A stretch of 64,000 nucleotides of DNA, taken from Candidatus Omnitrophota bacterium (lineage in GTDB: Bacteria; Omnitrophota; Gorgyraeia; Zapsychrales; JANLHA01). Positions 17,390 through 64,000 of the stretch are shown one piece after another. Location of the stretch: the NCBI GenBank assembly GCA_040753435.1, contig JBFMEN010000069.1, forward strand, positions 47,551-111,550, given 5' to 3'. The position numbers and the translations under genes were made by a program. The stretch's first letter is position 1, and every line of letters begins with the position of its first letter. The notes below the pieces were generated by a model that did not search any database, was not told the DNA's origin, and worked only from the letters and a program-made list of their open reading frames with translations.

Positions 17390-17634
17390 TCAACGGAGAG
17401 GAGCAGATTAAGCGGGCTATTGTCGAGGCGTTATGTGAAGATCCGGATGTGGATGCGGCCGGGATAAGTGTCCGGGTGACGGGATCTTTAGTCGTTTTGA
17501 CCGGAACCGTACCAAATCAACGCGCCAGAGATGCTGCTTATCGTGACGCATTGTTATCAGATGATATTGAAGTAAAAAATTTTATTGTAGTTAATGACAA
17601 CCCGATTGACGACCCTAAAGCGCACATTGCTTGA
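17386..17634 (+). CDS. BON-domain protein (single BON)
   Basis: ISVRVTGSLVVLTGTVPNQRARDAAYRDAL... is a BON unit. A 4-nt overlap with the upstream PRC gene indicates coupling. Confidence 0.55.
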   Translation: MINGEEQIKRAIVEALCEDPDVDAAGISVRVTGSLVVLTGTVPNQRARDAAYRDALLSDDIEVKNFIVVNDNPIDDPKAHIA

Positions 17635-17664
17635 AAAGCCGGTTTGATAGAGAGATAACTTGAG

Positions 17665-45544: not shown

Positions 45545-45563
45545 GCCGATAAAAGCGAGGTTA

Positions 45564-47186: not shown

Positions 47187-47211
47187 ACAGTCCTTCGATA
47201 ACACGACGTCT

Positions 47212-48420: not shown

Positions 48421-48446
48421 CAGCCAGCCGCAGGGCAGGAGTTATT

Positions 48447-49230: not shown

Positions 49231-51165
49231 ATGCGGTCTCTTCAAAATTTTTCTTATTATCTATCCCGATTTGTTTTCTGGCTTTTTCCAGCCATTGTGC
49301 TGGAGCCTGTTTTCTTTATGCAGTTTTTGCCGACTCCTACCGGGGTCGTTATTATTTATCTTGAGGTTCTGGTCTGGGGTATTTTATTATTTTTAACAAT
49401 CTTCTTTTTTTCCGGTTTCTACGCAAGCAGTGTTGATTTGATCACGGAACGTTCTCCCGTCATTTATCTCTCCCAAATCAAATCGAACTTTAAACGATTC
49501 TGGTTTCCGTATACAATTTTTCTTGCTACCCCTTATATTATTCACCTTGTTTTTTACTTTTTTTCCTATATTCAAGATTCGGAATCGTTGAATATCCGGC
49601 TTATTCGGGGCGCATTGGATGGTATTTTGCTGCTTGTTTTCATAAGCGTAATCATGAAGCGAAAGGAAAAAGAATTTAATTGTTTCGAGTTTTTCAGGTA
49701 TGTACTTTTAACTCCCCGATTTTTTGTATTTTTGATCTTTGCCGCGCTTATTTTTCTTTGTGAATTTTTCTATATCCAGATCCCTTTGAATTACAGATCC
49801 TGGTTAGCGCTGTTATTGATTACAATGAATCAGTTCCTTCATTTCAGTCTCTTAAGCGTTTTGTTAAACGCGGTTTATTTATCGAATAAAACGATCTTTA
49901 CGCGTAATGACGCCCCCGAGATTTATTTTGTTGATCCGTCCAGCCCCGGTATTTATCGATCCGTGATTGCGGGCTTGATGTCGGAAGGATCCGGTATCTT
50001 TTCATTAATTAAAGCGCTGACTCCCCCGAAATATAAATTAAAAGAGTTTCGATGGGTTATGTGGCGAAATGAGATGTTCTGCGATGGAAAACTTGTCGCC
50101 ATTACATGTTTTACATCAAATTGCGCGGAAGCTTATTGGGTTGCCAAACGGTTTAAAGAAAGAGGATCCAAAGTGGTCATGGGAGGGCCTCATGTCATGT
50201 TTATGACGGAGGAAGCTCTGACATTTTGCGATTCAGTCGTTATGGGTGAGTTGGAGACCGTTTGGGAAGAAATTATAAAAGATTTTGAAAACGGGGCGAT
50301 GAAACCAGTCTATGATCGCAGGTGTGAAGATGTTCCAGAGCGGATTTGGGAAAAAGTCCGGGATTTGTCCGGAAAAGAATTGGAACCCATTCTTCAAATC
50401 GGGAGGGGCTGTAAATACAACTGTGATTTTTGTTCGATTTCAGCGATGACGAACAGAAAAATCCGTTATTTCAACCTTGATCATGTGGTTGATATGGTAA
50501 AGAAGGTGACAAATTTCCGTCCCGGAAAGTGGCTTCTTTTTTTTGACAGCAATATTTATTTGAATCCTCAACGGTTCCGGGAATTCGCTGAAAGGATGAT
50601 TCCTTTTAAGATCAAATGGAATTCGTCGTGCAGTATCGACATTGCCGGGAATGAAGAGGACCTGGCTCTGGCGAGAAAATCCGGTTGCGAAGCATTACTG
50701 ATTGGTTATGAAGTTTCTGACGAATCACCGGAGGCAGCGAAAGGCGGCAAGTTTTCTTATGCGAAAAAATATGTCGAGATGACTAAAAAAATTCACAAGG
50801 CCGGGATAGGCGTTAAGGCTCACTTTATGTGTGGATTTGAGAAGGAAGATACTAAAGTTTTATTTCGTTTATGGTGGCTGTCCTTCAGATTATTCCCAAT
50901 GACGGCGGCTGTTCTTGTGTTGACGCCTTTCCCCGGCACTGCTGTTACAAACAAACTTTTTAATGAGGAGCGGATTAATAATTTAAATTGGGCCAATTAT
51001 GATTGTATAAATCTTGTTTTTGAACACCCGTCATTTAACCCTGTTCTTTTTAAGTTGTTTTTCCCGGTCTTTCTCACCTTTTTCTTTTTGACGACCAGCC
51101 GATTAGGAATATTTCTCATGGGTTTACTAATATGGCAAAGCTTTTTGTCTGGTTTTTTGCATTAA
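49231..51165 (+). CDS. Membrane-anchored B12-binding-domain radical SAM protein
   Basis: About 250 aa of polytopic hydrophobic N-terminus. Then a cobalamin-binding-like Rossmann region (KLVAITCFTSNCAEAYWVAKRFKERGSKVVMGGPHV) and the radical-SAM cluster motif GRGCKYNCDFCS (CxxxCxxC). Additional C-terminal hydrophobic helices. The start codon is uncertain. Confidence 0.6.
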   Translation: MRSLQNFSYYLSRFVFWLFPAIVLEPVFFMQFLPTPTGVVIIYLEVLVWGILLFLTIFFFSGFYASSVDLITERSPVIYLSQIKSNFKRFWFPYTIFLATPYIIHLVFYFFSYIQDSESLNIRLIRGALDGILLLVFISVIMKRKEKEFNCFEFFRYVLLTPRFFVFLIFAALIFLCEFFYIQIPLNYRSWLALLLITMNQFLHFSLLSVLLNAVYLSNKTIFTRNDAPEIYFVDPSSPGIYRSVIAGLMSEGSGIFSLIKALTPPKYKLKEFRWVMWRNEMFCDGKLVAITCFTSNCAEAYWVAKRFKERGSKVVMGGPHVMFMTEEALTFCDSVVMGELETVWEEIIKDFENGAMKPVYDRRCEDVPERIWEKVRDLSGKELEPILQIGRGCKYNCDFCSISAMTNRKIRYFNLDHVVDMVKKVTNFRPGKWLLFFDSNIYLNPQRFREFAERMIPFKIKWNSSCSIDIAGNEEDLALARKSGCEALLIGYEVSDESPEAAKGGKFSYAKKYVEMTKKIHKAGIGVKAHFMCGFEKEDTKVLFRLWWLSFRLFPMTAAVLVLTPFPGTAVTNKLFNEERINNLNWANYDCINLVFEHPSFNPVLFKLFFPVFLTFFFLTTSRLGIFLMGLLIWQSFLSGFLH

Positions 51166-53284: not shown

Positions 53285-53485
53285 AACAACCGACCTTTTG
53301 TTAATACATTCATTTTCCGAATTCATATGTCAAATAATTCGTATGTGATGAATAATTTTAGATGAAAAAAAGTTTTTTTACAACCCATTTCACGTCCAAG
53401 GATTTTTCTTGAAAATTTTTTTAAAATGACATAAAGTAGTGGCAATCCGGCAATCGGGCTGGTTTGAAATTGAAAGGGGGATGGT

Positions 53486-54115
53486 ATGAAGAAGATTTGG
53501 TTTATGTTTGCATGTTTGACGATGTGTGCGGGTTTGGTGATGTCATCAGCGGCGATTGCGCAAGAAGAAGAAATATATCCCGTTCAGATTTCACTATTCA
53601 ATCCTGCGCAGATTTTCCCACAAGACACATCAATCTCCGGGTTGCGCATTAACTTTATTTATGGTTTAAACGAAAATGTCACAGGTCTTGATCTTGGTAT
53701 CGCCAATATGACCAACGGGAATTTTAAAGGTTTGGGTTATGGTTTGATTAATTATACCAAGGGGAATGTGACCGGGGAGCAAGGCGGCCTGGTGACTTTT
53801 GTTGAAGGTGATGTTATCGGCGCGATCTCGGGTCTGGTGGCGATCGGCCAGGGGGATGTCAGCGGCGGTTCTGCCGGTTTTGTTAATTATGTAAACGGGA
53901 ATGTCTCAGGCGCCATGTTCGGCGGTTTGAACTATTCATCTAATATGGAAGGGCTTCAGCTTGGTGTTGTGAACTATACTGAAGAAATGGACGGATTCCA
54001 GTTTGGGTTAGTAAACTGGACCGCCAGACTCCAGGGACTTCAAATTGGTTTATTAAACATCGCATCGGAAAAAGAAATGCTTCCGATCCTTCCATTTGTC
54101 AATGCCGCTTGGTAA
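53486..54115 (+). CDS. Secreted Gly/Asn-rich repeat protein (probable outer-membrane/surface protein)
   Basis: Signal peptide (MFACLTMCAGLVMSSAAIAQE), then ~17-aa quasi-repeats G(L/F)xNYxxGNVxG... (GLINYTKGNVTGEQGG; GFVNYVNGNVSGAMFGG; GVVNYTEEMDGFQFG; GLVNWTARLQGLQIG). Ends ...NAAW. Confidence 0.5.
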   Translation: MKKIWFMFACLTMCAGLVMSSAAIAQEEEIYPVQISLFNPAQIFPQDTSISGLRINFIYGLNENVTGLDLGIANMTNGNFKGLGYGLINYTKGNVTGEQGGLVTFVEGDVIGAISGLVAIGQGDVSGGSAGFVNYVNGNVSGAMFGGLNYSSNMEGLQLGVVNYTEEMDGFQFGLVNWTARLQGLQIGLLNIASEKEMLPILPFVNAAW

Positions 54116-54162
54116 GATAACTGTTAAATCGGTGTTTTTGAAGAAGCCGAGTGTGTTTCAAA

Positions 54163-54197
54163 GGGGGGTGGCTTGTTAGACAAGCCGCCCCTTTTTT
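54163..54197 (+). terminator. Rho-independent terminator after the repeat-protein gene
   Basis: GGGGGGTGGCTTG - TTAGA - CAAGCCGCCCC followed by TTTTTT: an 11-bp GC-rich stem, 5-nt loop and T-run. A second weaker element, CCCGCGGGG+T7, lies at ~54211-54226. Confidence 0.6.
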
Positions 54198-54298
54198 GAT
54201 CCTGAATGTTCCCGCGGGGTTTTTTTGTTTTATATTGCTTGCCTATAGGATTTCGCTATAATATTTTGAATTCAAATAATAAATAAAAGGGGCGACGT

Positions 54299-55069
54299 AT
54301 GAAGGTTGTGATTCTGGCAGGAGGTTACGGCTCCCGGTTGGGGACAATAACCGAAGTTGTGCCAAAACCGATGGTCAAGATCGGGAACAAGCCCATTCTA
54401 TGGCATATCATGAAGTATTTTTCGTCTTTCGGTCATAAAGATTTTGTGTTAAGTCTGGGCTATAAAGCGGAAGTTATCAAAGACTTCTTTTATCATTATC
54501 ATATCCAGGTTAATAATTTTACAATTCAATTAGGCAGCAAAAAGATAGACTTTCATGATGCCCACGATGAAGCCGATTGGAGCGTCACGCTGGTTGATAC
54601 CGGCATAGATACCCTTAAAGGGGCCCGTATAAAAAGACTTGAACGATTTTTGGATGATGTGAATTTGTTGACGTATGGGGACGGGCTTGCGGACGTCGAT
54701 ATTAATAAACTGGTCGCCTTTCATCGGTCGCATGGAAAGATTTTGACTGTCACCGGAGTTTATCCTCCCGCACGTTTTGGCGAGATTATTGCCAAAAAAG
54801 GTGAGGTAACTGCGTTTCAGGAGAAAAAACAAACATCATCTGGAAGGATTAATGGCGGTTTTATGATTTTTGATAAACGCCTTCTGGAATATTTATCCGA
54901 TGAGGAATTTTGCGATTTGGAGTTTGAAATTTTTCCACGCCTGGTCGCCAAAGGCGAGATGATGGTTTATGACCATGACGGAAGTTGGGAATGCATTGAT
55001 ACGGAACGGGATCTCCTGCATTTGAACAAATTATGGCGCGATGGATTGGCATTTTGGAAAAAGTGGTGA
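54299..55069 (+). CDS. rfbF: Glucose-1-phosphate cytidylyltransferase
   Basis: MKVVILAGGYGSRLGTITEVVPKPMVKIGNKPILWHIM matches the RfbF/DdhA N-terminus almost residue for residue. Confidence 0.85.
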   Translation: MKVVILAGGYGSRLGTITEVVPKPMVKIGNKPILWHIMKYFSSFGHKDFVLSLGYKAEVIKDFFYHYHIQVNNFTIQLGSKKIDFHDAHDEADWSVTLVDTGIDTLKGARIKRLERFLDDVNLLTYGDGLADVDINKLVAFHRSHGKILTVTGVYPPARFGEIIAKKGEVTAFQEKKQTSSGRINGGFMIFDKRLLEYLSDEEFCDLEFEIFPRLVAKGEMMVYDHDGSWECIDTERDLLHLNKLWRDGLAFWKKW

Positions 55070-55176
55070 CGCGAATATCGAAATCCGAAGTAAATTAAAA
55101 TATCAAACAAAACAATATTTATAAATTTTGATTTAAAAATTATTTTCCGGATCCGGATTTTCGGCATTCGAATTTC

Positions 55177-56271
55177 ATGAACAAACTTTTCAAAAATATA
55201 TATCACAACCGCAGAGTTTTTATCACCGGCCATACCGGCTTCAAAGGATCATGGCTCGCGTTCTGGCTGAGAAAGATGGGGGCTGAAGTCTTTGGTTATT
55301 CTCTCGAGCCTCCGTCAGACCCGAATCACGCCAGTCTTTTGGATTTGGATATTCAGAGCATGATCGCCGACATCAGAGATCGAGATGTTCTTTATGGCGC
55401 CATTAAAGATTTCCAACCCGAGATTGTTTTTCACCTTGCCGCCCAACCGTTAGTCCGGTATTCGTATCAATATCCTGTTGATACGTTTGAAACAAATGTC
55501 ATGGGTTGTGTTTTTTTGTTTGACGTCTGCCGTCAGGTCAACTCTGTTCGAGCCATCATTAACGTCACCAGTGATAAATGTTATGAAAATAAAGAACGGA
55601 TGGAAGGGTACCGAGAGGACGATCCGATGGGAGGGCATGATCCTTACAGTTGTTCAAAAGGTTGTGCGGAGTTGGTCACTACAGCTTACCGGCGGTCATT
55701 TTTTCCGATTGAAGAGTTTGGTCATAGCCATCATGTCCTTGTCGCCAGTTGTAGGGCCGGCAATGTTATCGGTGGAGGAGATTGGGCCCAGGATCGTTTA
55801 ATTCCCGATATTATCAGAGCAGTTGCCTGCCGGGAATGTGTTAGAATCCGGCACCCGCAAGCAATTCGTCCATGGCAGCATGTGCTTGAACCGTTAAGCG
55901 GCTATCTTCTTCTGGGACAGAGATTGCTGGAGGGGAAAAAAGAGTTTTCGCAGGCATGGAATTTTGGCCCGGGCAAGGGTGATGTTCGATGTGTCGAAGA
56001 CGTTGTCAAGGGAATGTCATTTCAGTGGGACAGAGTTTCTTATCATTTTGATGAAGGCGAACATCTTCATGAAGCGAAGGTGCTGCAGTTAAATTGTGAT
56101 AAAGTCAACACGATTATGAACTGGAGTGAGGTTTGGGACGTTGATGAAGCTATTCGCCGGACAGCTATCTGGTATAAAAAATTTTATGAAGAAAAAGCGG
56201 TTGTAACTGAAAATGACATTTCGGATTATGTCAATCACGCACGTAATAAAGGAATCGTATGGGCGGTTTAA
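55177..56271 (+). CDS. rfbG: CDP-glucose 4,6-dehydratase
   Basis: VFITGHTGFKGSWLAFWL (NAD Rossmann), the YSCSK catalytic YxxxK region and the overall SDR-extended pattern of RfbG/DdhB. Confidence 0.85.
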   Translation: MNKLFKNIYHNRRVFITGHTGFKGSWLAFWLRKMGAEVFGYSLEPPSDPNHASLLDLDIQSMIADIRDRDVLYGAIKDFQPEIVFHLAAQPLVRYSYQYPVDTFETNVMGCVFLFDVCRQVNSVRAIINVTSDKCYENKERMEGYREDDPMGGHDPYSCSKGCAELVTTAYRRSFFPIEEFGHSHHVLVASCRAGNVIGGGDWAQDRLIPDIIRAVACRECVRIRHPQAIRPWQHVLEPLSGYLLLGQRLLEGKKEFSQAWNFGPGKGDVRCVEDVVKGMSFQWDRVSYHFDEGEHLHEAKVLQLNCDKVNTIMNWSEVWDVDEAIRRTAIWYKKFYEEKAVVTENDISDYVNHARNKGIVWAV

Positions 56272-57596
56272 ATCCTGAACAAATAAAAGCTGATATTTTA
56301 TGCCGGGTCAAAGAGTATTATCACGCGACATTCGGCCAGCCGGAGGATTTTAAACCAGGCAAAAGCCCGGTGGCATATGCCGGCCGTGTCTTTAATGAAA
56401 ATGAAATGACTAATCTCGTTGATTCCGCCCTTGAATTCTGGTTGACTTATGGACGTTATTCAAAAGAGTTTGAGTATCGTTTGGCTGAATATTTGGGATT
56501 AAGGTGGTCTCTTGTCGTGAATTCCGGCTCATCGGCAAATTTATTAGCCTTCATGGCCTTGACGTCGCCACTTTTGAAGGAACGACGTGTCCGGAGGGGT
56601 GATGAGGTTGTTACTGTTGCCGCGGGATTTCCGACAACAGTGGCGCCGATGATTCAGTATGGCGCAGTTCCTGTCTTTGTGGATGTTGACCTCGAAACCT
56701 TTAACATCGATATCACTCAATTGCAAAGGGCGTTGACCGATAAAACAAAGGCTGTGATGCTGGCGCACACCCTTGGGAATCCATTTAATATTGACGCGGT
56801 TCAGGCATTTTGCAGCGCCCATGGGCTTTGGTTAATTGAGGATAACTGCGATGCGCTTGGCTCAACATATAACGGGAAACTGACCGGGACATTCGGCGAT
56901 ATCGGGACGAGCAGTTTTTACCCTCCCCATCATATCACCATGGGAGAAGGCGGGGCGGTTTATACGAGCGATCCTCTGTTAAGGAAGATTATGCTTTCAA
57001 TCCGGGACTGGGGTCGCGACTGCTGGTGTGACAGCGGGCGGGATGATACCTGTGGACAGCGTTTTAACGGCCAGTTTGGATCCCTGCCTTTCGGGTATGA
57101 TCATAAATATGTGTACAGTCATTTCGGATATAATTTGAAAGCGACCGACCTTCAGGCCGCGGTGGGCTGCGCGCAGTTAGAAAAACTTGATGAGTTCACG
57201 CGGAAACGCAAAGAGAATTTTCGCGCCTTTTATGAAGGGCTTAAAGGTCTGGATGAGTATTTTATTTTACCCAAATCTACAGAGAAAAGTGATCCGTCCT
57301 GGTTCGGGTTTCTTCTGACATTACGGGATGGCGTTGCGTTTAAACGTAATGATCTTGTCGAATATTTAGAAGGCAAAAATATTCAAACTAGAAATCTTTT
57401 TGCCGGTAATCTCACCCGGCATCCGTGCTTTGAATCTTTAAACGAGGGCGTCGATTATCGCATCGCAGGAAATTTGTCGAATACGGACAAGATCATGAAC
57501 GACAGCTTCTGGTTCGGGGTGTATCCGGGGATGGATAAAAACTTAGTTGACTATATTATTAGAACAATAAAGGAGTTTATTCTTGAAAATAGATGA
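56259..57596 (+). CDS. rfbH: CDP-6-deoxy-D-xylo-4-hexulose-3-dehydrase (RfbH/DdhC, PMP-dependent, DegT family)
   Basis: SLVVNSGSSANLLAF, FGDIGTSSFYPPHHITMGEGGAV and an N-terminus typical of RfbH. Confidence 0.8.
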   Translation: MGGLNPEQIKADILCRVKEYYHATFGQPEDFKPGKSPVAYAGRVFNENEMTNLVDSALEFWLTYGRYSKEFEYRLAEYLGLRWSLVVNSGSSANLLAFMALTSPLLKERRVRRGDEVVTVAAGFPTTVAPMIQYGAVPVFVDVDLETFNIDITQLQRALTDKTKAVMLAHTLGNPFNIDAVQAFCSAHGLWLIEDNCDALGSTYNGKLTGTFGDIGTSSFYPPHHITMGEGGAVYTSDPLLRKIMLSIRDWGRDCWCDSGRDDTCGQRFNGQFGSLPFGYDHKYVYSHFGYNLKATDLQAAVGCAQLEKLDEFTRKRKENFRAFYEGLKGLDEYFILPKSTEKSDPSWFGFLLTLRDGVAFKRNDLVEYLEGKNIQTRNLFAGNLTRHPCFESLNEGVDYRIAGNLSNTDKIMNDSFWFGVYPGMDKNLVDYIIRTIKEFILENR

Positions 57597-59364
57597 TCCT
57601 CGAGCACTGTTTAGGGAAACGATCAAAAAAGAATTTTCTTTTTTAAAAAGCGACGCCTCATTTATTGATGCCATTTCAAAATCCATTTCTTTGCCTCGGA
57701 ATCAAGGAGCTCTTTTGCCGATTCATTATGGACTAGTCAATGACGATGAGCTTATTAAAACTTTAGCCATTTGGAGGGAAGAAAACTCGTTTGCATATTG
57801 CGTCAAGTTTAAAGTGACCTTTGATGGTACCAGAAACTGGCTTAAAAATCAGGTTTTAGACAATGATGCAAGAATTTTATTTTTGGTCATTGATCGTTTT
57901 GGACGACGAATCGGTCATGTGGGTCTAGGGGATTGTATGAATGATCAATGTAAGATTATGGTAGATAACATACTGCGAGGAGACAAAACGCATGAGAAGG
58001 GAATTATGGCTGAAGCGGTGCTGGAACTTTGCGAATGGGCCAGAAAGACGTTTTTACCTAACGAAATCTATTTAAAAGTACTTGATGATAACCATCATGC
58101 CGTTGAGTTTTATAAAAAACTTGGTTTTATTGAGACCGGTAAACTTCCTTTAGTTAGGGAGGACCGCGGCGCAGGTTATTTTGCTTATCTTGATGCCAAG
58201 GAAAGCCAGAAACCCGACCGGTATTTTGTGAATATGGTTATCCCCGAAAGAAAAGGGTTTAAGCCAGAGAAAACTATTTTGACTGCCGGCCCTTTAATTG
58301 GAGGTCGTGAAGTTTTTTACGTTAATGATGCGGCGCGTAATGGATGGAATGAGCAATGGAGCGGGTATTTGACCAGGTTCGAGAAAAAATTCGCCGAATA
58401 TATCGGAGTGAAATATGCCCTGGCAACATCCAGCGGAACAGGTGCGCTCCATATTGCGCTTTTGGCTTTAGACATCGGGCCTGGCGACGAGGTTATTATC
58501 CCCGATCTTACCTGGGTTGCAACTGGACAAGCAGTTAATTATGTAGGTGCTGTTCCAGTTTTCGCCGATGTCCAGAAATTGACCTGGTGTCTTGATCCGG
58601 ATTCATTTAAAAAACAAATCACGAACAAAACAAAAGCTGTCATGCCGGTTCATTTATATGGCCACCCCTCCCGAATGGATGAGATTTTGCCGATTGCAAA
58701 AAAATATGGAATAAAAGTTGTTGAGGATGCAGCTCCGTCGATAGGAGCTGAAGTTAATGGCAAGCGAACAGGAAGTTTCGGTGATTTTGCTATGTTTAGT
58801 TTTCAGGGTGCTAAACTGACAGTCACTGGGGAAGGCGGGATTCTTTTAACTAATGATGACAAGCTTTATGAGAAGGCACGAAAAATCTGGGACCAGGGCC
58901 GCCGTCCAGGGACATTCTGGATTGATGAGGTTGGATGGAAATATAAAATGTCAAATGTTCAAGCCGCTCTTGGGTTGGGCCAGCTTGAACATGTTGAGCA
59001 ACTGGTGGCGGCAAAGCGTCAAATTTTTTCATGGTATGAGGAGTTTTTATCGGACTGTCCTTATATTGAATTAAACAGGGAGGCTGCATGGGCAAGAAGC
59101 ATTTACTGGATGAGCAGTATTTTATTGAACGCTGATGCTCCATTAAATCGGGAAGAATTAATCCGGTCATTGAAAGACAACAAGATTGACAGCCGGCCTG
59201 TTTTCCCTTCAATGAGTTTGTTTGACTTCTGGCCGAAGAAACAGAGATCCCAGGAAAATGCTTTCTATATCGGAAATCATGGAATTAATCTTCCCAGCGG
59301 CGTTTGTTTAAAAAGGGAAGAGGTTAAATATGTCTGCGACACAATAAAACGGTTGCTATCATGA
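57583..59364 (+). CDS. Bifunctional GNAT-like N-acyltransferase (N-terminal ~230 aa) fused to a DegT/DnrJ/EryC1/StrS sugar aminotransferase
   Basis: N-terminal GNAT core (ILFLVIDRFGRRIGHVGLG...GKGIMAEAVLELCEWA...EFYKKLGF). C-terminal fold-type I aminotransferase (ALATSSGTGALHIALLAL...DEVIIPDLTW; FSFQGAKLTVTGEGGIL). A 14-nt overlap with rfbH. Confidence 0.7.
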   Translation: MKIDDPRALFRETIKKEFSFLKSDASFIDAISKSISLPRNQGALLPIHYGLVNDDELIKTLAIWREENSFAYCVKFKVTFDGTRNWLKNQVLDNDARILFLVIDRFGRRIGHVGLGDCMNDQCKIMVDNILRGDKTHEKGIMAEAVLELCEWARKTFLPNEIYLKVLDDNHHAVEFYKKLGFIETGKLPLVREDRGAGYFAYLDAKESQKPDRYFVNMVIPERKGFKPEKTILTAGPLIGGREVFYVNDAARNGWNEQWSGYLTRFEKKFAEYIGVKYALATSSGTGALHIALLALDIGPGDEVIIPDLTWVATGQAVNYVGAVPVFADVQKLTWCLDPDSFKKQITNKTKAVMPVHLYGHPSRMDEILPIAKKYGIKVVEDAAPSIGAEVNGKRTGSFGDFAMFSFQGAKLTVTGEGGILLTNDDKLYEKARKIWDQGRRPGTFWIDEVGWKYKMSNVQAALGLGQLEHVEQLVAAKRQIFSWYEEFLSDCPYIELNREAAWARSIYWMSSILLNADAPLNREELIRSLKDNKIDSRPVFPSMSLFDFWPKKQRSQENAFYIGNHGINLPSGVCLKREEVKYVCDTIKRLLS

Positions 59365-60176
59365 CTGATTTTGAAAAATTAAAGGATCATGCCAAATCGA
59401 TCCGGATTAATGCACTAAAAATTATCAGCCGCAGCAGGGCGAGCCATATCGGCAGCGGGTATTCTTGTGTGGAACTTTTAACCTTTTTATATGGGAATTG
59501 GCTAAATGTTTCCCCACAAGGCATCAATCACCCCGATCGCGACAGGTTTATTTTGAGCAAAGGACATGCTGCTGCAGTTTATTATTCTGTTCTTGCAGAA
59601 TTTGGTTTCATATCAATGAAAGATCTCGATTCCTATTGTCAGTTTGGTTCTTTATTAGGTGGCCATGTGCATCATGCAGTAGCAGGGGTTGAAATTTCAA
59701 CAGGATCATTAGGTCACGGGCTGCCAATCGCTGTTGGGATGGCCTTGGCGGCAAAAAGAAATCGAAAGAGATATCGTGTTGTGGCTCTGCTTTCTGATGG
59801 AGAAATGGAGGAGGGATCTAATTGGGAAGCGCTGAATATGGCCTCAGCACAAAGACTTGATAATCTGACAGTTGTCGTCGATAAAAACGGATTGCAGGCA
59901 ATGGGATTTGTAAAAGACATTTTGCCTATGGACAATCTTGGAGACAGGATTAATAGTTTTGGTTGTGCTGCGCAAATTATTGATGGACATAATGTTAATC
60001 AAATTGATTTGGCGTTCCAGGGTATTCCATTTATAAAAAATAAACCTTCTGTACTAATCGCGAATACTATTAAAGGCAAGGGCGTCAGTTTTATGGAAAA
60101 TAAACTTGAATGGCATTACCGTTCTCCCAATGAAGAGCAATATCAGAAGGCATTAAAGGAATTGGAGTCGGTATGA
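59361..60176 (+). CDS. Transketolase, N-terminal (TPP-binding) subunit
   Basis: HIGSGYSCVELLTFLY, GHAAAVYYSVL and GSLGHGLPIAVGMA match the transketolase PP domain. 4-nt overlaps on both sides. Confidence 0.8.
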   Translation: MTDFEKLKDHAKSIRINALKIISRSRASHIGSGYSCVELLTFLYGNWLNVSPQGINHPDRDRFILSKGHAAAVYYSVLAEFGFISMKDLDSYCQFGSLLGGHVHHAVAGVEISTGSLGHGLPIAVGMALAAKRNRKRYRVVALLSDGEMEEGSNWEALNMASAQRLDNLTVVVDKNGLQAMGFVKDILPMDNLGDRINSFGCAAQIIDGHNVNQIDLAFQGIPFIKNKPSVLIANTIKGKGVSFMENKLEWHYRSPNEEQYQKALKELESV

Positions 60177-61084
60177 GGACGGCTTTTATGGAAACACTGT
60201 GTGAGGCTGCGGAAATAGATGATCGAATCTGTTTAATTGTAGGAGATCTTGGGTTTTCTGTTGTTGAGTCTTTTGTAGAAAGATTTCCCGATCGTTTTCT
60301 GAATGCGGGGGTTGCCGAGCAATCAATGACCGGGATCGCGACAGGGTGGGCTTTGGCAGAGAAAAAGATTGTCTTTACGTATAGTATTGCTAATTTTCCT
60401 ACGATGCGATGTGTTGAACAAGTTCGTAATGACGTATGTGCTCACAAGGCAGATGTTAAAATTATTTCACTGGGCAGCGGAATTACTTATGGCCCGTCGG
60501 GATATTCACACTTCGCCGTTGAAGACCTCGCTGTTATGAATGCCATGCCGCACATGATCATCTTTACGCCAGCTGACCCCCAAGAGGCTAAACATTGTTT
60601 GGATCTGGCTGTCCGCACGCCCGGCCCTGCATATATACGTTTAGCAAAAAGCGGCGAGCCGAATCTAAGACAATCATTCGTTCCTTTCGAAATAGGTGAT
60701 TTTGTTGAATACAAGTCGGGGAATGACCTGTGCGTGTTGGGGATTGGCTCGATTTTGTCTGAGTGCTTGTCTGCTGCAAAGATGTTGGAACCTTCATTGT
60801 CGGCTTCGGTACTTGGTTTGCCAGTACTAAAGCCGTTGAATGAAAAGAAACTGGTCGAATATTTAAGGCCTTTTCCATTATTGATTACTGTTGAAGAACA
60901 TTCCGAACATGGGGGGATGGCCGGTATCATTTCAGAATTGGTGGTAAGGAATGGATTGTCGCCCAGGCTAATAAAAATATCATTGCCGGAAGGGTTTGAC
61001 AGGGTCGGTCCACAGGAAGATTTGCGCAAATCATCAGGACTTGATGCGAAGTCAATTGCAGAAAAAATTCTAGGGAGCATTTAA
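60173..61084 (+). CDS. Transketolase, C-terminal (Pyr + C-terminal domain) subunit
   Basis: GVAEQSMTGIATGWAL, HFAVEDLAVMNAMPHMIIFTPAD and the C-terminal domain. Confidence 0.8.
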   Translation: MRTAFMETLCEAAEIDDRICLIVGDLGFSVVESFVERFPDRFLNAGVAEQSMTGIATGWALAEKKIVFTYSIANFPTMRCVEQVRNDVCAHKADVKIISLGSGITYGPSGYSHFAVEDLAVMNAMPHMIIFTPADPQEAKHCLDLAVRTPGPAYIRLAKSGEPNLRQSFVPFEIGDFVEYKSGNDLCVLGIGSILSECLSAAKMLEPSLSASVLGLPVLKPLNEKKLVEYLRPFPLLITVEEHSEHGGMAGIISELVVRNGLSPRLIKISLPEGFDRVGPQEDLRKSSGLDAKSIAEKILGSI

Positions 61085-61909
61085 ATGCGGGAAACGATCT
61101 GTTTGATTGCTGGGGGAAAGAACGAGGGGAAATCCCTGCCGGCATTTTTTAAATATCATGAATGGGTCGATGAGATTTTACTGATGGATTCTTTCAGTAC
61201 GGATAACACAGAAGAAATTTGTCGCGAATATAACCGACAATGCTTTAAAGCAGAAATGGGAGGGGACGCTAACAAACGCCATAATCTTGCTTTGAAGACA
61301 GCAAAAAGTGATTGGGTTTTTTTGATCGATCCTGACGAGTTCATTTCTGATGAGCTTAAGAATGAAATTTTTGAGATCCTGGATAAGGGGACGGACTGTG
61401 CGGCGTTTGAAAATAAAAGAGTGAATTTTTTTCTGGATAAGCCCCTTCGCTACGGCGGCTGGAGCGGTTATTCAATGAAGTTTTTTCGCAAGAATTCAGT
61501 TTCCTTTAACGGCGATTCTTTTCATGAAAAACCGATTATCGATGGAAAAATAGGCAGGTTGAAAGGTGAAGTGCGCCATTACCCCAGCCCCAATATTCAC
61601 TGGATTCTGCAAAAGTTTAACTATATTAGCGAGTTCGATTTGAAGGAATATGCGAATAAACATGGCGAACTTGCAGAAAAGCAGTTTAAATGGCTTCTTA
61701 TTTCAAAACCTTTCAAGAATTTTTGGAAATGTTATATCAGGAAAAAAGGGTATAAAGACGGACTGCACGGCTTTATTTACGCTATGCTGATGTGGGCGTT
61801 TGATGTGATCCGTATATGCAAATATGGGGAGCGGTATCTGATTAAAAATCCAAATATACCCGCGTTAAATGAATTGCCCGACCCATGGGAGTGCAGGAAA
61901 AAGGCATGA
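61085..61909 (+). CDS. Glycosyltransferase family 2
   Basis: ICLIAGGKNEGKSL...ILLMDSFSTDNT (GT-A DxD-type region) and FLIDPDEF. Confidence 0.7.
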   Translation: MRETICLIAGGKNEGKSLPAFFKYHEWVDEILLMDSFSTDNTEEICREYNRQCFKAEMGGDANKRHNLALKTAKSDWVFLIDPDEFISDELKNEIFEILDKGTDCAAFENKRVNFFLDKPLRYGGWSGYSMKFFRKNSVSFNGDSFHEKPIIDGKIGRLKGEVRHYPSPNIHWILQKFNYISEFDLKEYANKHGELAEKQFKWLLISKPFKNFWKCYIRKKGYKDGLHGFIYAMLMWAFDVIRICKYGERYLIKNPNIPALNELPDPWECRKKA

Positions 61910-62952
61910 CCCAGCCAATACCAAAAACGATTGCGGTGTTCCGGACGGACAGGATTGGTGAAGTCCTTTTATCTACAGTCGCTGTAGATATTCTCAGGAA
62001 AGCTTATCCCGCATCATCGATCATTTTTTTTACGTCAAAATATTCAGCCGCGCTTTTGCATAATCGAAAAGACATCAATGAGGTTATCCCGCTTGATATT
62101 TTTCAACGCCGTCATTGGGTTGGCGACGCTTTGAGACTTGCCCGGATGTTAAAGTCCCGTCGGTGCGGCATGTCGATCGTTCTTAATCCATCTAAAACAG
62201 TTCATCTGGCCTGTTTTTTTGCAAGGGTTCGAAGACGCTGCGGCTTTGATCGGAAATGGGGTTCTTTGCTGACGGACAGAGTTAATGACTGCCGGAATGA
62301 CGGGAAGCAGCATGAAGTTGAGTACACCAAAGAATTTTTTCGGGCGTTGGGGATTCCTGCCGCGGACGAAGTTCGGCCTTCCCTGGTTGTTGCGAATAAA
62401 ATGAAGGAGCTTGTCAGGCTTCGTTTGCAGGAACGTGGGGTGGACTTAAGAAAACAACTGGTGATAGTCCATCCTTGCGCCAGTAATCCCTTAAAATGCT
62501 GGCCCCGGCAAAAGTATATAGAATTGTCGCGCCAATTAGGATCGCTTTCCGTTCAACTCGTTTTGATTGGTGAGCAAAAGGAATATGATGAGCTTGCGGA
62601 TATGGTGTGTGAATGCGGGTGTCATGTATTGAATGGCGCAGGTTTGTTTGATCTTGAAGAATTAGCCGCGGTGATTAATATTTCTGATTTGTTTATCGGC
62701 AATGATTCCGGTCCGATGCACATGGCTGCGGCGCTCGGAGTCCCGGTTATCGCGATTTTTTCCAAAAAGGCAACAGGGTCAAATCCATTACGGTGGCGGC
62801 CCTGGGGAGAAGGACATGCGATTTTTCATGAACTTTATGGAGAAAAGCCTTGCCAATTAAAACATTTCAGTGGATATTATATTGCCAAAGATGAAATTGA
62901 ACCTTCCGACGTTTTAAAATTGTCCTGTGTTTATTTAAATGAAAGGCTTTAG
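61906..62952 (+). CDS. Glycosyltransferase family 9 (heptosyltransferase-like)
   Basis: IAVFRTDRIGEVLLSTVAVDILRKAYP... and C-terminal LFIGNDSGPMHMAAALGVPVIAIF match the GT9 signature. The ATG at 61906 overlaps the GT2 stop (ATGA); the alternative start is 61885. Confidence 0.8.
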   Translation: MTQPIPKTIAVFRTDRIGEVLLSTVAVDILRKAYPASSIIFFTSKYSAALLHNRKDINEVIPLDIFQRRHWVGDALRLARMLKSRRCGMSIVLNPSKTVHLACFFARVRRRCGFDRKWGSLLTDRVNDCRNDGKQHEVEYTKEFFRALGIPAADEVRPSLVVANKMKELVRLRLQERGVDLRKQLVIVHPCASNPLKCWPRQKYIELSRQLGSLSVQLVLIGEQKEYDELADMVCECGCHVLNGAGLFDLEELAAVINISDLFIGNDSGPMHMAAALGVPVIAIFSKKATGSNPLRWRPWGEGHAIFHELYGEKPCQLKHFSGYYIAKDEIEPSDVLKLSCVYLNERL

Positions 62953-63658
62953 GCCCATGATGGATAATTACTTTTTAAATAATCCTGTTTTTTTAAAATA
63001 CAAGCGTCGTTTCGACTGGAAAAAATTGCGCCGAACGCCCCAATTGGTCAAGGCGATAATCAACGAACGGATTGTTGAGATCCCGTTTGCGCTTAACGCT
63101 TTGTCCGTTATTCCCCGTGATGGAAAAGTGCTGGACGTCGGATGCATGGAAAGCCTGTTTCCATTGTTTGCTTCGGCGCTCGGATACCAGGTGACGGGAT
63201 TTGATTTCAGGGAGTTCCCTTACCAGGCGCCCAATTTCACTTTTGTTCAGGGCGATATTCTGGATCTCCCTTTTAAAGAAAATGAATTCGATGCGGTGAG
63301 CTGTGTATCGACTATTGAACACGTCGGGATTGGTTACTATAGTGATCCGGCGGACGATGTCTCCGCGGACGTGAAGGGGATTAAAGAAATCCGGCGGATC
63401 CTCAAACCATCCGGATTATTGATTCTCAGCGTCCCGTTTGGGAAAGCCCATATTGATCATCAACAGCGTGTTTATGATACCGAAATGATAAATAATCTCC
63501 TTAAAGATTTTAATGTAACGTCGGTTCAGTTTTTCAAAAATACCCGGCCTGTCCTTGGCAATAATTATTGGGAAAAGGTCGATCAGAATATAGCTGAGAA
63601 AATTGATTATCAAACCGGGACTGAATGCGTCTGTTGTGCGACTGCGGTTAAACACTGA
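62939..63658 (+). CDS. Class I SAM-dependent methyltransferase-like protein (atypical motif I)
   Basis: VLDVGCMESLF (degenerate GxGxG), acidic D at the end of beta2 (GFDFRE), and motif post-II IRRILKPSGLLILSVP. Confidence 0.5.
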   Translation: MKGFRPMMDNYFLNNPVFLKYKRRFDWKKLRRTPQLVKAIINERIVEIPFALNALSVIPRDGKVLDVGCMESLFPLFASALGYQVTGFDFREFPYQAPNFTFVQGDILDLPFKENEFDAVSCVSTIEHVGIGYYSDPADDVSADVKGIKEIRRILKPSGLLILSVPFGKAHIDHQQRVYDTEMINNLLKDFNVTSVQFFKNTRPVLGNNYWEKVDQNIAEKIDYQTGTECVCCATAVKH

Positions 63659-63677: not shown

Positions 63678-64000
63678 ATGTTTAAAAAAATAATTTTTTC
63701 ATTAATCCTGGCGTTTATTTCGCTGACACTGATCATTATCGGAGCTGAGATCGTCCTTCGTGTTTTGAAAGGCGTTCCGGAAAGCCCGCTTGCCCAGATT
63801 ACCCAGGATCAAAATAATACGCGTTTTCTTTTCAAGCCCGGCGAGGTGCTTGAGAGTAATTCATCTGTCGAAGGCGAATTTAATTACACCGCCCGCATAA
63901 ATTCTCATGGCTATCGGGGGAAAGAGTTCCCGCCTGAAAAGCAGTCGGGAAAACTCCGTATTATGATGGTTGGTGATTCATTTACATTTGGAGTCGGATC
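63678..64000 (+). CDS. SGNH/GDSL-like hydrolase with N-terminal membrane anchor (3' truncated at the window edge)
   Basis: An N-terminal TM helix. Block I IMMVGDSFTFGVGS (GDS(L)) lies near the end of the window. Confidence 0.5.
   Translation, partial: MFKKIIFSLILAFISLTLIIIGAEIVLRVLKGVPESPLAQITQDQNNTRFLFKPGEVLESNSSVEGEFNYTARINSHGYRGKEFPPEKQSGKLRIMMVGDSFTFGVG

What the first reader, a model, noticed from the sequence alone, without database searches (positions are those of the whole stretch)
54299..63658. CDP-hexose (3,6-dideoxy / amino-sugar) pathway and glycosyltransferase cluster with unusual accessory enzymes
rfbF-rfbG-rfbH (CDP-glucose, then CDP-4-keto-6-deoxyglucose, then CDP-4-keto-3,6-dideoxyglucose) are followed, with overlapping stops and starts, by a GNAT-aminotransferase fusion, a split transketolase, GT2, a GT9 heptosyltransferase-like enzyme and a methyltransferase. 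This predicts a CDP-activated 3,6-dideoxy sugar that is aminated, N-acylated and possibly C2-branched before transfer. That sugar is unusual and probably lineage-specific in the LPS or glycan. The usual final reductase or epimerase (RfbI/RfbJ-type) is not present.
Basis: partly seen in the sequence, partly recalled or inferred. Interest (0 to 1): 0.5.

Follow-up and report, generated by a model that had tools for sequence, protein, structure and literature searches.

The report
Branched amino-sugar pathway using split transketolase
This is a real operon in an uncultured Omnitrophota bacterium that makes an activated 3,6-dideoxy sugar and then probably adds a two-carbon branch with a transketolase-like enzyme, aminates and acetylates it; the same uncharacterised gene cassette occurs in at least four other bacterial lineages (five if a Planctomycetes source label is counted).

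Summary
Nine co-oriented ORFs (54299-63658), six of the eight junctions overlapping or abutting, encode RfbF, RfbG, RfbH, a GNAT-aminotransferase fusion, a split transketolase (TK), GT2, GT9 and a methyltransferase.

RfbH is a true E1-type 3-dehydrase. It keeps the active-site His and all four Fe-S cysteines. No E3 reductase and no RfbJ/RfbS/RfbE-type enzyme was found in the window, though only a motif scan covered the whole 64 kb.

The sugar is not lineage-specific. RfbF - 4,6-dehydratase - RfbH - GNAT/AT - TK-N - TK-C was present in all eight fusion loci sampled, usually followed by a GT2. These loci come from Omnitrophota, Chloroflexota, Acidobacteriota, a Thermoguttaceae MAG and a 1.28-Mb complete genome.

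The TK belongs to a distinct subfamily confined to glycan loci. It keeps the ThDP-binding and catalytic residues but has lost the sugar-phosphate-binding residues of canonical TKs. It sits beside an aminotransferase or an SDR, with or without RfbH.

Best reading (confidence about 0.45): this is a yersiniose-like pathway. The split TK replaces YerE and branches C4 of CDP-4-keto-3,6-dideoxyglucose. AT/GNAT replace YerF, giving an N-acetylated amino branch.

Main rival: amination directly at C4.

No paper found assigns a function to this cassette. I rate it a new variant of a known kind, of moderate interest.

The parts
54299..55069 (+). RfbF/DdhA-type glucose-1-phosphate cytidylyltransferase (256 aa)
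   Evidence: TIGR02623 at 290.9 bits, full length 1-256/255, just under the 300.25 cutoff. PF00483 E 1.4e-18. Orthologues in L001 and L020 score 414.8 and 330.8 bits, above the cutoff.
55177..56271 (+). RfbG/DdhB-type CDP-glucose 4,6-dehydratase (364 aa)
   Evidence: TIGR02622 at 474.7 bits, above the 278.45 cutoff. In some related loci a shorter SDR of about 327 aa takes its place; its best hit is the same model at about 220 bits.
56259..57596 (+). RfbH/DdhC/E1: PMP- and [2Fe-2S]-dependent CDP-4-keto-6-deoxyglucose 3-dehydrase (445 aa)
   Evidence: NF011936 at 722.7 bits. 534 bits to PDB 3BCX, the Y. pseudotuberculosis E1. 'FYPPHHITMGEGG' keeps the active-site His. 'EDNCDALG' and 'DCWCDSGRDDTCG' keep the Cys ligands. 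These features are conserved in 11 cassette orthologues, except that L051 and L061 read AHQ instead of HH in the His motif.
57583..58257 (+). GNAT N-acyltransferase domain of the fusion protein (residues about 1-225; TTG start overlaps the rfbH stop)
   Evidence: PF13302 and PF00583 at residues 63-182. AlphaFold model has pLDDT 93.7, and Foldseek matches SpeG-type and other GNAT N-acetyltransferases at E 4e-9. The domain family has 654 representatives at E<1e-10, mostly stand-alone proteins of about 220 aa. It occurs unfused in L101.
58276..59364 (+). DegT/PerS-type PLP sugar aminotransferase domain of the fusion (residues about 232-593)
   Evidence: PF01041 E 1.3e-107. 281 bits to GDP-perosamine synthase 3BN1, with the catalytic Lys kept in 'FSFQGAKLTVTGEGG'.
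59361..60176 (+). N-terminal (ThDP pyrophosphate-binding) subunit of the split transketolase-like enzyme (271 aa)
   Evidence: PF00456 E 8.7e-41. 210 bits to the split TK of C. hydrogenoformans, 6YAK. The catalytic His residues equivalent to human TK H37, H77, H110 and H258 are kept. Subfamily signatures are SDGE (instead of GDGE) and GSLGHG.
60173..61084 (+). C-terminal (pyrimidine-binding plus C domain) subunit of the split transketolase-like enzyme (303 aa)
   Evidence: PF02779 and PF02780. 177 bits to 6YAJ. Arg (yeast R359) and Glu418 are kept. Yeast His469 is Gly, Glu476/Asp477 are lost ('YGPSGYSH' versus 'VGEDGASH'), and Arg528 is Lys.
61085..61909 (+). Small GT2-family glycosyltransferase (274 aa), candidate transferase for the modified sugar
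   Evidence: PF00535 E 1.4e-9 and PF13704. 64% identical orthologue at the same position in L001. A GT2 follows the cassette directly in six of the eight fusion loci sampled; in L020 a 493-aa ORF without a Pfam hit intervenes, and L103 has a GT2/GT1 fusion.
61885..62952 (+). GT9 (heptosyltransferase-like) glycosyltransferase (355 aa)
   Evidence: PF01075 E 8e-31. The best NCBIfam heptosyltransferase II and III hits are about 104 bits, below their cutoffs of 134-170. A GT9 also lies in L001 and L076.
62939..63658 (+). Class I SAM-dependent methyltransferase (239 aa)
   Evidence: PF08241 E 1.4e-13 and related models. Methyltransferases also follow the cassette in L001, L020 and L103.
63678..64000 (+). 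Next ORF of the operon, cut by the window end. It has an N-terminal hydrophobic segment and a 'VGDSFTFG' motif.
   Evidence: Read from the sequence. No Pfam or NCBIfam hit for the 107 residues available. The SGNH/GDSL-like reading is by eye only.

Best explanation
The operon encodes a yersiniose-like pathway to a C4-branched 3,6-dideoxyhexose, with different enzymes for the branching and tailoring steps.

Steps 1-3 (well supported by homology):
- RfbF makes CDP-D-glucose.
- RfbG makes CDP-4-keto-6-deoxyglucose.
- RfbH (E1; PMP plus [2Fe-2S]) removes the 3-OH to give CDP-4-keto-3,6-dideoxyglucose. It draws electrons from a reductase encoded elsewhere, because no E3 is in the cassette.

Step 4 (inferred):
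- The heterodimeric split transketolase-like ThDP enzyme loads a C2 unit. The retained TK histidines suggest a 1,2-dihydroxyethyl (glycolaldehyde) unit from hydroxypyruvate or a ketose. A pyruvate-derived hydroxyethyl unit is the alternative.
- It adds this unit to the C4 ketone, as YerE does. The product is a tertiary alcohol carrying a new acyl ketone, 4-C-hydroxyacetyl or 4-C-acetyl.

Step 5 (inferred):
- The aminotransferase domain of the fusion converts the side-chain ketone to an amine.
- The fused GNAT domain N-acetylates it.
- The product would be CDP-3,6-dideoxy-4-C-(1-acetamido-2-hydroxyethyl)hexose, or the 1-acetamidoethyl analogue. This is an eight-carbon sugar.

Step 6 (inferred):
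- GT2 and/or GT9 transfer the sugar to an LPS-core-like or polysaccharide acceptor.
- The methyltransferase methylates the sugar or the glycan.
For: 1. The early steps rest on equivalog-level HMM scores and conserved catalytic residues.

2. The six genes are translationally coupled. They were found together in all eight fusion-encoding loci sampled: the window, L001, L002, L019, L020, L102, L103 and L104. They also occur in metagenome loci L045, L028, L069 and L089. In L101 GNAT and AT are separate genes in the same order. In L104 the order is RfbH-TKN-TKC-fusion-GT2, which matches the proposed reaction order.

3. All 16 aligned members of the TK subfamily keep the ThDP motif, the cofactor-activating Glu and the catalytic His residues. 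All lack the His469 and Glu476/Asp477 (yeast numbering) that hold sugar phosphates and the aldose C2-OH. This fits a bulky, non-phosphosugar acceptor.

4. Context variants follow YerE/YerF logic.
- L051 has RfbF-RfbG-RfbH-SDR-TKN-TKC, with an SDR in place of AT/GNAT.
- L024 has RfbF-RfbG-SDR-TKN-TKC with no RfbH.
- Many loci have PglC-like transferase + TKN + TKC + DegT aminotransferase with no CDP genes.
- So the TK is tied to a keto-sugar pathway plus a ketone-processing enzyme, not to RfbH and not to a GNAT.

5. Precedents in the literature:
- YerE and ErwE branch exactly CDP-4-keto-3,6-dideoxyglucose, and acyl branches are then reduced or transaminated (PMC9306805).
- Split-gene TKs are proposed to transfer hydroxyacetyl to a keto sugar in miharamycin and amipurimycin (PMC12247030, section 2.3).
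- In anisomycin biosynthesis a TK-type condensation is followed by a transamination (PMC11387542).
Against:
- The AT domain's closest stand-alone relatives (about 43% identity; Bosea, Methylocapsa, Pseudolabrys) sit with RfbF, RfbG, a C-methyltransferase and a 3,5-epimerase, with no TK. There they must aminate C4 itself.
- The best PDB match is a C4 aminotransferase, perosamine synthase. By homology alone, C4 amination is the default reading.
- No TK has been shown in vitro to accept a ketone (PMC12247030).
- The C2 donor is unknown.
- 8 of 29 well-flanked TK loci show neither an AT nor an SDR within 5 kb by my detection.
- No reviewed natural glycan is known to carry such an amino-branched sugar (PMC9912281, as far as its text shows).
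Confidence: 0.45

Rival explanations
1. Direct C4 amination. The fusion acts like PseC plus PseH, or like perosamine synthase plus an acetyltransferase, on CDP-4-keto-3,6-dideoxyglucose. The product is CDP-4-acetamido-3,4,6-trideoxyhexose. The split TK has some other role that is not understood.
For: The AT domain is most like C4 aminotransferases: 3BN1 at 281 bits, with LegC, PseC and DesI models next. Stand-alone relatives at about 43% identity work without any TK beside RfbF/RfbG. There is weak PseH similarity in the GNAT domain.
Against: This leaves a strictly co-conserved, translationally coupled ThDP enzyme with no carbonyl substrate. The same TK subfamily recurs with an AT or an SDR in unrelated sugar contexts. 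4-amino-3,4,6-trideoxyhexoses are not, to my knowledge, known in bacterial glycans (from memory).
Confidence: 0.2
2. The TK pair replaces the missing E3 reductase. Oxidation of a dihydroxyethyl-ThDP intermediate feeds two electrons to the [2Fe-2S] cluster of RfbH.
For: No Fer2/FNR-type E3 gene was found in the 64-kb window or in any cassette locus examined. RfbH keeps its Fe-S ligands and so needs a reductant.
Against: Most members of the TK subfamily sit in loci with no RfbH at all, for example L024, L021, L076 and the PglC-type loci. The TK has no flavin or Fe-S domain. From memory, E1 homologues such as SpnQ can use general cellular ferredoxin or flavodoxin reductases.
Confidence: 0.04
3. 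The TK generates an unusual acyl donor, such as a glycolyl unit as in the QncN/L-type systems, which the GNAT domain puts on a 4-amino group. The product would be an N-glycolyl or similar amino sugar.
For: The GNAT and TK are always together in the CDP cassette. From memory, split TK-like E1 enzymes deliver glycolyl units in naphthyridinomycin and quinocarcin biosynthesis.
Against: No lipoyl/E2, ACP or CoA-ligase partner is in the cassette. The TK also occurs with an SDR and no detectable GNAT, as in L051 and L024.
Confidence: 0.06
4. The split TK is simply the organism's housekeeping pentose-phosphate transketolase and happens to lie in this operon.
For: The best PDB match is a bona fide split transketolase, 6YAK/6YAJ. 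The NCBIfam 'transketolase' models are the top hits, though far below their cutoffs.
Against: His469, Asp477 and (in this protein) Arg528 of canonical TKs are replaced. The scores are 260 and 150 bits against a cutoff of 488. The gene pair has the same position in glycan loci across several phyla.
Confidence: 0.03

Closest known systems
Yersiniose A pathway of Yersinia pseudotuberculosis (DdhA-D, then YerE, then YerF) and its relatives for erwiniose, caryophyllose and gastriose
   Same: It uses the same CDP-glucose to CDP-4-keto-3,6-dideoxyglucose trunk, with RfbH at 534 bits to the Yersinia E1. A ThDP-dependent enzyme is encoded right next to the trunk genes, followed by an enzyme able to process a ketone, and the product goes into a cell-surface glycan (PMC9306805).
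   Different: The ThDP enzyme is a two-subunit transketolase-family protein. It is not the acetolactate-synthase-like (decarboxylase superfamily) YerE. The follow-up enzyme is an aminotransferase-GNAT fusion, not the YerF reductase. No E3 (DdhD) gene is present. The donor is probably a ketol or hydroxypyruvate rather than pyruvate.
Split-gene transketolases of the miharamycin and amipurimycin clusters (Streptomyces)
   Same: They have the two-gene N/C architecture. Their proposed job is to transfer a hydroxyacetyl unit to a keto sugar to form a tertiary alcohol (PMC12247030, section 2.3).
   Different: Those enzymes act in nucleoside-antibiotic pathways. They are reported only from Streptomycetes (13 sequences) and have never been assayed. 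Here the context is a CDP-sugar and LPS/polysaccharide locus in Omnitrophota and other phyla. Sequence relatedness to them was not tested.
Canonical transketolase, including the split TK of Carboxydothermus hydrogenoformans (PDB 6YAK/6YAJ)
   Same: Fold and domain order match. So do the ThDP/Mg motif, the activating Glu and the catalytic His residues.
   Different: The substrate pocket differs: His469 is Gly, Glu476/Asp477 are lost, Arg528 is Lys (in the window), GDG is SDG and GQG is GHG. The enzyme is embedded in glycan operons rather than in central metabolism.
Abequose, paratose and tyvelose (rfb) clusters of Salmonella
   Same: RfbF, RfbG and RfbH are present in the same order.
   Different: There is no RfbI (E3), no RfbJ/RfbS reductase and no RfbE epimerase. 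Three extra enzymes (TK-N, TK-C and the GNAT/AT fusion) are present, so the product is not an ordinary 3,6-dideoxyhexose.
wps-2 exopolysaccharide cluster of Actinoplanes missouriensis (AMIS_56700-56760)
   Same: It has methyltransferase - TK-N - TK-C - DegT aminotransferase, plus a GNAT domain, in a Wzx/Wzy polysaccharide locus (PMC13390465). This is the same set of accessory enzymes as in the PglC-type loci found here.
   Different: It has no CDP or RfbH genes. The GNAT is fused to the phosphoglycosyl transferase. The paper reports domains only and assigns no function to the TK.

Membership tests
CDP-3,6-dideoxyhexose (ddh/asc/rfb) pathway | Glucose-1-phosphate cytidylyltransferase (RfbF/DdhA) | tested here: inconclusive
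   TIGR02623 at 290.9 bits against a cutoff of 300.25, full-length match, with the next family at 90 bits. Orthologues in L001 and L020 pass the cutoff.
CDP-3,6-dideoxyhexose (ddh/asc/rfb) pathway | CDP-glucose 4,6-dehydratase (RfbG/DdhB) | tested here: met
   TIGR02622 at 474.7 bits against a cutoff of 278.45.
CDP-3,6-dideoxyhexose (ddh/asc/rfb) pathway | E1 3-dehydrase with His in place of the PLP lysine, plus [2Fe-2S] cysteines | tested here: met
   NF011936 at 722.7 bits. Alignment to 3BCX shows HH and C...CxC-x7-C conserved.
CDP-3,6-dideoxyhexose (ddh/asc/rfb) pathway | E3 reductase (RfbI/DdhD/AscD: 2Fe-2S ferredoxin plus FNR-like domains) encoded with E1 | tested here: not met
   A motif scan of all ORFs of at least 90 aa in the 64-kb window found no Fer2 or FNR pattern (this is a crude regex). 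No such Pfam family appears among the cluster proteins or in L019, L020, L102, L103 or L104.
CDP-3,6-dideoxyhexose (ddh/asc/rfb) pathway | Terminal C4 reductase and/or epimerase (RfbJ, RfbS, RfbE) | tested here: not met
   RfbG is the only SDR in 54299-63658. The part of the cluster beyond 64000 could not be read.
Yersiniose-type C4 branching (YerE/YerF) | Supply of the acceptor CDP-4-keto-3,6-dideoxyglucose | tested here: met
   RfbF, RfbG and RfbH are present.
Yersiniose-type C4 branching (YerE/YerF) | ThDP carboligase of the YerE (acetolactate-synthase-like, decarboxylase superfamily) type | tested here: not met
   The only ThDP enzyme is of the transketolase family: PF00456, PF02779 and PF02780. 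It may work like YerE, but it is not a family member.
Yersiniose-type C4 branching (YerE/YerF) | NAD(P)H side-chain ketoreductase (YerF) | tested here: not met
   The window has none; an AT/GNAT fusion occupies that place. An SDR does occupy it in the variant loci L051 and L024, but it matches no curated family.
Canonical transketolase (EC 2.2.1.1) | ThDP/Mg2+ motif, cofactor-activating Glu and catalytic His residues | tested here: met
   SDG...N motif. His residues equivalent to human TK H37, H77, H110 and H258, plus Glu366 (human), are all present.
Canonical transketolase (EC 2.2.1.1) | Sugar-phosphate and aldose-binding residues (yeast Arg359, Ser386, His469, Asp477, Arg528) | tested here: not met
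   Arg359 is kept. His469 is Gly and Asp477 is Ser. Arg528 is Lys in the window. The Ser386 position varies among orthologues. NCBIfam transketolase models score 260 and 150 bits against a cutoff of 488.
Split-gene TKs proposed for keto-sugar branching (miharamycin/amipurimycin type) | Two-gene N/C architecture inside a keto-sugar pathway | tested here: met
   The genes overlap by 4 nt at 60173-60176 and lie between the RfbH/AT genes and a GT2.
Split-gene TKs proposed for keto-sugar branching (miharamycin/amipurimycin type) | Sequence relatedness to, or shared pocket signature with, the Streptomyces enzymes | not tested
Split-gene TKs proposed for keto-sugar branching (miharamycin/amipurimycin type) | Demonstrated ketone-acceptor carboligation | not testable with these tools
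   This needs an enzyme assay. It is also unproven for the reference enzymes (PMC12247030).
DegT/PerS-type NDP-sugar aminotransferase plus GNAT N-acetyltransferase | PLP-binding Lys and fold-type I sugar aminotransferase domain | tested here: met
   PF01041 E 1e-107. The Lys aligns with the Lys in the corresponding motif of 3BN1.
DegT/PerS-type NDP-sugar aminotransferase plus GNAT N-acetyltransferase | GNAT fold | tested here: met
   Model pLDDT 93.7. Foldseek probability 1.00 to SpeG-type and other GNAT acetyltransferases.
DegT/PerS-type NDP-sugar aminotransferase plus GNAT N-acetyltransferase | Position aminated (ring C4 versus side-chain C1') | not testable with these tools
   Homology favours C4. 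Gene context favours the side chain. Only product analysis can decide.

The most novel reading that the evidence does not exclude
A widespread family of heterodimeric transketolase-like carboligases, previously unrecognised, builds C-branched sugars in the surface glycans of many bacterial phyla. Its signature is SDGE and GSLGHG in the N subunit and GGG..YGxxG(S/T)H in the C subunit. In this cassette it would use CDP-4-keto-3,6-dideoxyglucose as a ketone acceptor. Together with the AT-GNAT fusion it would yield a new eight-carbon amino-branched sugar, 3,6-dideoxy-4-C-(1-acetamido-2-hydroxyethyl)hexose. This would be the first natural role shown for a TK forming a tertiary alcohol.
Probability: 0.4. 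Interest if true: 0.7.

Novelty: new variant of a known kind. Interest (0 to 1): 0.55.

Why it matters
If the model holds, it gives a concrete and testable natural substrate pair for a transketolase that accepts a ketone. A 2025 review (PMC12247030) lists that reaction as proposed but never demonstrated, and as known only from 13 Streptomyces clusters.

It would extend ThDP-dependent sugar branching from the YerE and alpha-ketoacid-dehydrogenase families to a third family, one that is common in LPS and EPS loci of uncultured phyla.

It also predicts a new amino-branched octose as a surface antigen. It supplies enzymes (TK plus transaminase plus acetyltransferase) of biocatalytic interest for making chiral tertiary amino-alcohols.

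If instead the sugar is simply aminated at C4, the finding shrinks to a new trideoxy amino sugar plus an unexplained TK.

Tried and rejected
- Exact-protein look-ups of the fusion (window translation and P0001) and of TK-N found no contig on record. The part of the cluster beyond position 64000 therefore could not be recovered.
- Literature searches linking transketolase with rfbH, CDP-glucose 4,6-dehydratase or O-antigen clusters returned nothing relevant. Krug et al. 2024 (doi 10.1002/anie.202403535) is not held.
- The idea that the TK substitutes for E3 was considered. I rejected it as the main model because most TK-subfamily loci lack RfbH.
- The idea that the TK feeds an acyl group to the GNAT was down-weighted. 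Loci L051 and L024 have the TK with an SDR and no detectable GNAT.
- NCBIfam typing of the TK-adjacent SDRs was meant to distinguish a C4 reductase from a YerF-like enzyme. It gave only generic extended-SDR hits.
- Foldseek on the GNAT model gave only generic amine acetyltransferases and no sugar-specific relative.
- The promoter and terminator scan of 53300-55300 gave nothing usable.
- The regex screen for E3 is crude. A divergent reductase could escape it.

Full report
**Observation.** The region 54299-63658 holds nine consecutive + strand ORFs. Stops and starts overlap at six junctions and abut at one. Only the RfbF/RfbG junction has a gap, of 107 nt. This indicates one translationally coupled operon.

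HMM assignments are unambiguous:
- RfbF-like cytidylyltransferase: TIGR02623, 290.9 bits, marginally under the cutoff.
- CDP-glucose 4,6-dehydratase: 474.7 bits.
- RfbH: 722.7 bits.
- A 593-aa protein with an N-terminal GNAT domain and a C-terminal DegT-type aminotransferase.
- Transketolase_N, then Transket_pyr plus Transketolase_C, on two overlapping genes.
- A small GT2.
- A GT9 scoring below all heptosyltransferase cutoffs.
- A class I methyltransferase.

Upstream lie a trp operon, a B12-radical SAM gene and minus-strand GH18 and DJ-1 genes, so the cluster begins at 54299. It continues past the window end, with an ORF starting at 63678. The fusion protein is 100% identical to a protein of a 'Candidatus Omnitrophota bacterium' MAG.

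**The trunk pathway.** RfbH aligns over its whole length with the crystallised Yersinia pseudotuberculosis E1 (3BCX, 534 bits). It keeps the His that replaces the usual PLP lysine. It also keeps the Cys of 'EDxCDALG' and the C-x-C-x7-C motif. The cysteines are conserved in all eleven cassette orthologues and the His pair in nine; two read AHQ. It is therefore a genuine PMP/[2Fe-2S] 3-dehydrase and needs an electron donor.

No ferredoxin/FNR-type E3 (RfbI/DdhD/AscD) was found. A motif scan of the whole 64-kb window and nine cassette loci found none (crude). Pfam annotations of five other cassette loci show none. No RfbJ/RfbS/RfbE-type enzyme is in the region either. It is in fact E1's reductase partner, and its absence is a separate feature of the cassette.

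**Distribution.** The fusion is not lineage-specific. At least 120 database clusters are full length at 52-73% identity. Their source names point to Omnitrophota, Planctomycetes/Thermoguttaceae, Dehalococcoidales and Terracidiphilus.

Every fusion locus I could read keeps the core RfbF - 4,6-dehydratase - RfbH - GNAT/AT - TK-N - TK-C, usually followed by a GT2. The loci are:
- the window;
- L001, Omnitrophica UBA6249;
- L002, Anaerolineales;
- L019, complete genome CP040966.1;
- L020, Terracidiphilus;
- L102, Dehalococcoidales;
- L103, Thermoguttaceae;
- L104.

In some loci the dehydratase is a shorter SDR whose best match is still the CDP-glucose dehydratase model. In L101 the GNAT and AT are separate genes in the same order. 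In L104 the TK genes precede the fusion.

**The transketolase.** The closest solved structure is the split TK of Carboxydothermus hydrogenoformans. Alignments show what is kept and what is lost.
- Kept: the ThDP/Mg motif (as SDG...N), the cofactor-activating Glu, the Arg equivalent to yeast R359, and the catalytic histidines.
- Lost in all 16 members examined: His469 becomes Gly, and the Glu476/Asp477 pair is gone.
- Arg528 is Lys in the CDP-cassette members.

The lost residues are the ones that bind the phosphate and the C2-hydroxyl of sugar-phosphate substrates in canonical TKs. This role is established knowledge, cited for example in PMC11387542, ref 42. So this is not a housekeeping TK. 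The pocket looks opened up for a different and larger substrate.

**Comparative context of the TK subfamily.** A metagenome scan with the TK-C alignment returned 80 loci at 39-48% identity. Their neighbourhoods fall into four classes:
- (a) the full CDP cassette;
- (b) RfbF-RfbG-RfbH-SDR-TKN-TKC (L051);
- (c) RfbF-RfbG-SDR-TKN-TKC without RfbH (L024);
- (d) a PglC-like phosphoglycosyl transferase plus TKN, TKC and a DegT aminotransferase, with no CDP genes. This was the most frequent class among the 29 well-flanked loci.

Of the 29 loci with at least 1.3 kb on both sides, 14 have an aminotransferase and 7 more have only an SDR within 5 kb. The TK is thus tied neither to RfbH nor to a GNAT. The first point argues against a role as an E3 substitute. 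The second argues against a role as an acyl-donor generator. It is tied instead to a keto-sugar pathway plus an enzyme that processes a ketone.

That is the YerE/YerF logic of yersiniose biosynthesis. There, a ThDP enzyme adds an acyl unit to C4 of CDP-4-keto-3,6-dideoxyglucose and a reductase processes the new ketone (PMC9306805). The same paper notes that such acyl branches are also modified by transaminases.

**Literature.**
- A 2025 review states that split-gene TKs are only proposed to transfer a hydroxyacetyl group to a keto sugar, in miharamycin and amipurimycin. It says the 13 predicted examples are all from Streptomycetes and that none has been characterised (PMC12247030, section 2.3).
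- A 2026 paper lists MT - TK-N - TK-C - DegT, plus a GNAT fused to a sugar transferase, in the Actinoplanes wps-2 EPS cluster. It assigns no function (PMC13390465).
- Anisomycin biosynthesis offers a precedent for a TK-type condensation followed by a transamination (PMC11387542).
- I found no paper that treats the RfbFGH-GNAT/AT-TK cassette.

**Mechanism proposed.**
- Shown by homology: RfbF, RfbG and RfbH give CDP-4-keto-3,6-dideoxyglucose, with electrons from a reductase encoded elsewhere.
- Inferred: the TK heterodimer adds a C2 unit to the C4 ketone. The unit is probably dihydroxyethyl from hydroxypyruvate or a ketose, given the retained TK histidines. A pyruvate-derived unit is not excluded.
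- Inferred: the AT domain aminates the new side-chain ketone, and the GNAT domain acetylates the amine. The GNAT fold is supported by a model with pLDDT 93.7 and GNAT-fold matches.
- Inferred: GT2 and/or GT9 install the sugar and the methyltransferase decorates it.

The predicted product is a 3,6-dideoxy-4-C-(1-acetamido-2-hydroxyethyl)hexose or its 1-acetamidoethyl analogue. It is not among the branched sugars listed in a 2023 review, as far as its text shows (PMC9912281).

**Main caveat.** By sequence, the AT domain is a C4 aminotransferase. Its best PDB hit is perosamine synthase. Its nearest stand-alone relatives, at about 43% identity, sit with RfbF, RfbG, a C-methyltransferase and a 3,5-epimerase and have no TK. 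There they must aminate C4.

So a rival reading is that the fusion makes CDP-4-acetamido-3,4,6-trideoxyhexose and the TK does something unknown. I weigh this at about 0.2, against about 0.45 for the branching model. The reason is that the rival leaves a strictly co-conserved ThDP enzyme without any carbonyl substrate.

**Verdict.** The gene content and the set of chemistries are right. 'Lineage-specific' is wrong. The role of RfbI was misread. The likely order is branch first, then aminate.

The cassette works like the yersiniose pathway but fails the membership tests for YerE and YerF. Its TK fails the substrate-pocket test for canonical transketolases. I rate it a new variant of a known kind. 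Interest is moderate at 0.55: the cassette is uncharacterised and widespread, and it makes an open biocatalysis question directly testable. Every post-RfbH step remains an inference.

Noticed in passing
window 63678-64000 (+): The ORF after the methyltransferase starts with a hydrophobic segment and contains 'MMVGDSFTFGVG', which looks like an SGNH/GDSL block I motif. It could be a membrane-anchored glycan O-acyl esterase or transferase. It is cut by the window end and has no Pfam hit on the 107 residues available.
   Followed up: partly
window 53486-54115 (+): A 209-aa protein with a signal-peptide-like N-terminus. It is built of degenerate Gly/Asn-rich repeats (…GNVxG…, GLQxGLxN…) and has no Pfam or NCBIfam family. 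It lies directly upstream of the sugar operon.
   Followed up: partly
window 49231-51165 (+): A 644-aa B12-binding radical SAM protein sits between the trp operon and the cluster. A B12-radical SAM/DUF4070 gene also lies near the cassette in L102, at 17209-17794. A link to the glycan locus is possible but was not examined.
   Followed up: no
window 40367-43951 (+): A 1194-aa ORF with a TTG start and no Pfam hit at E<=1e-3.
   Followed up: no
window 44126-49181 (+): The trp operon has TrpE, a TrpG-TrpD fusion (GATase plus Glycos_transf_3), TrpB and TrpA. No trpC or trpF lies between trpD and trpB.
   Followed up: no
window 1-64000: GC skew is positive in every 2-kb bin. Cumulative skew rises monotonically to 4.73, and all but three of the ORFs of at least 150 aa listed for 30000-54300 are on the + strand (that half only was listed). 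The whole window appears to lie on one leading-strand replichore.
   Followed up: no
L001 7911-8651: In the closest related locus (Omnitrophica UBA6249), a metallo-beta-lactamase-fold protein (246 aa) is inserted between the dehydratase and RfbH. It is absent from the window.
   Followed up: no
L019 13496-14832: In CP040966.1 the cassette is followed by a GT2 (316 aa) and a GtrA-like small membrane protein. This suggests a GtrA/GtrB-type route there: the sugar is first put on undecaprenyl phosphate and then added to the glycan in the periplasm.
   Followed up: no
L012 and L015 (Methylocapsa, Pseudolabrys): Stand-alone relatives of the AT domain sit with RfbF, RfbG, a TylC3-type C-methyltransferase and a 3,5-epimerase. 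These loci look like pathways to a CDP-4-amino-4,6-dideoxy-3-C-methylhexose (kansosamine-like). They also appear uncharacterised.
   Followed up: partly
L021, L025, L070, L076, L096 and others: The most frequent TK context among the well-flanked loci is a small PglC-like phosphoglycosyl transferase plus TK-N, TK-C and a DegT aminotransferase, with no CDP genes. This may be an analogous branching of a UDP-4-keto-6-deoxy-HexNAc. The Actinoplanes wps-2 cluster (PMC13390465) matches it.
   Followed up: partly
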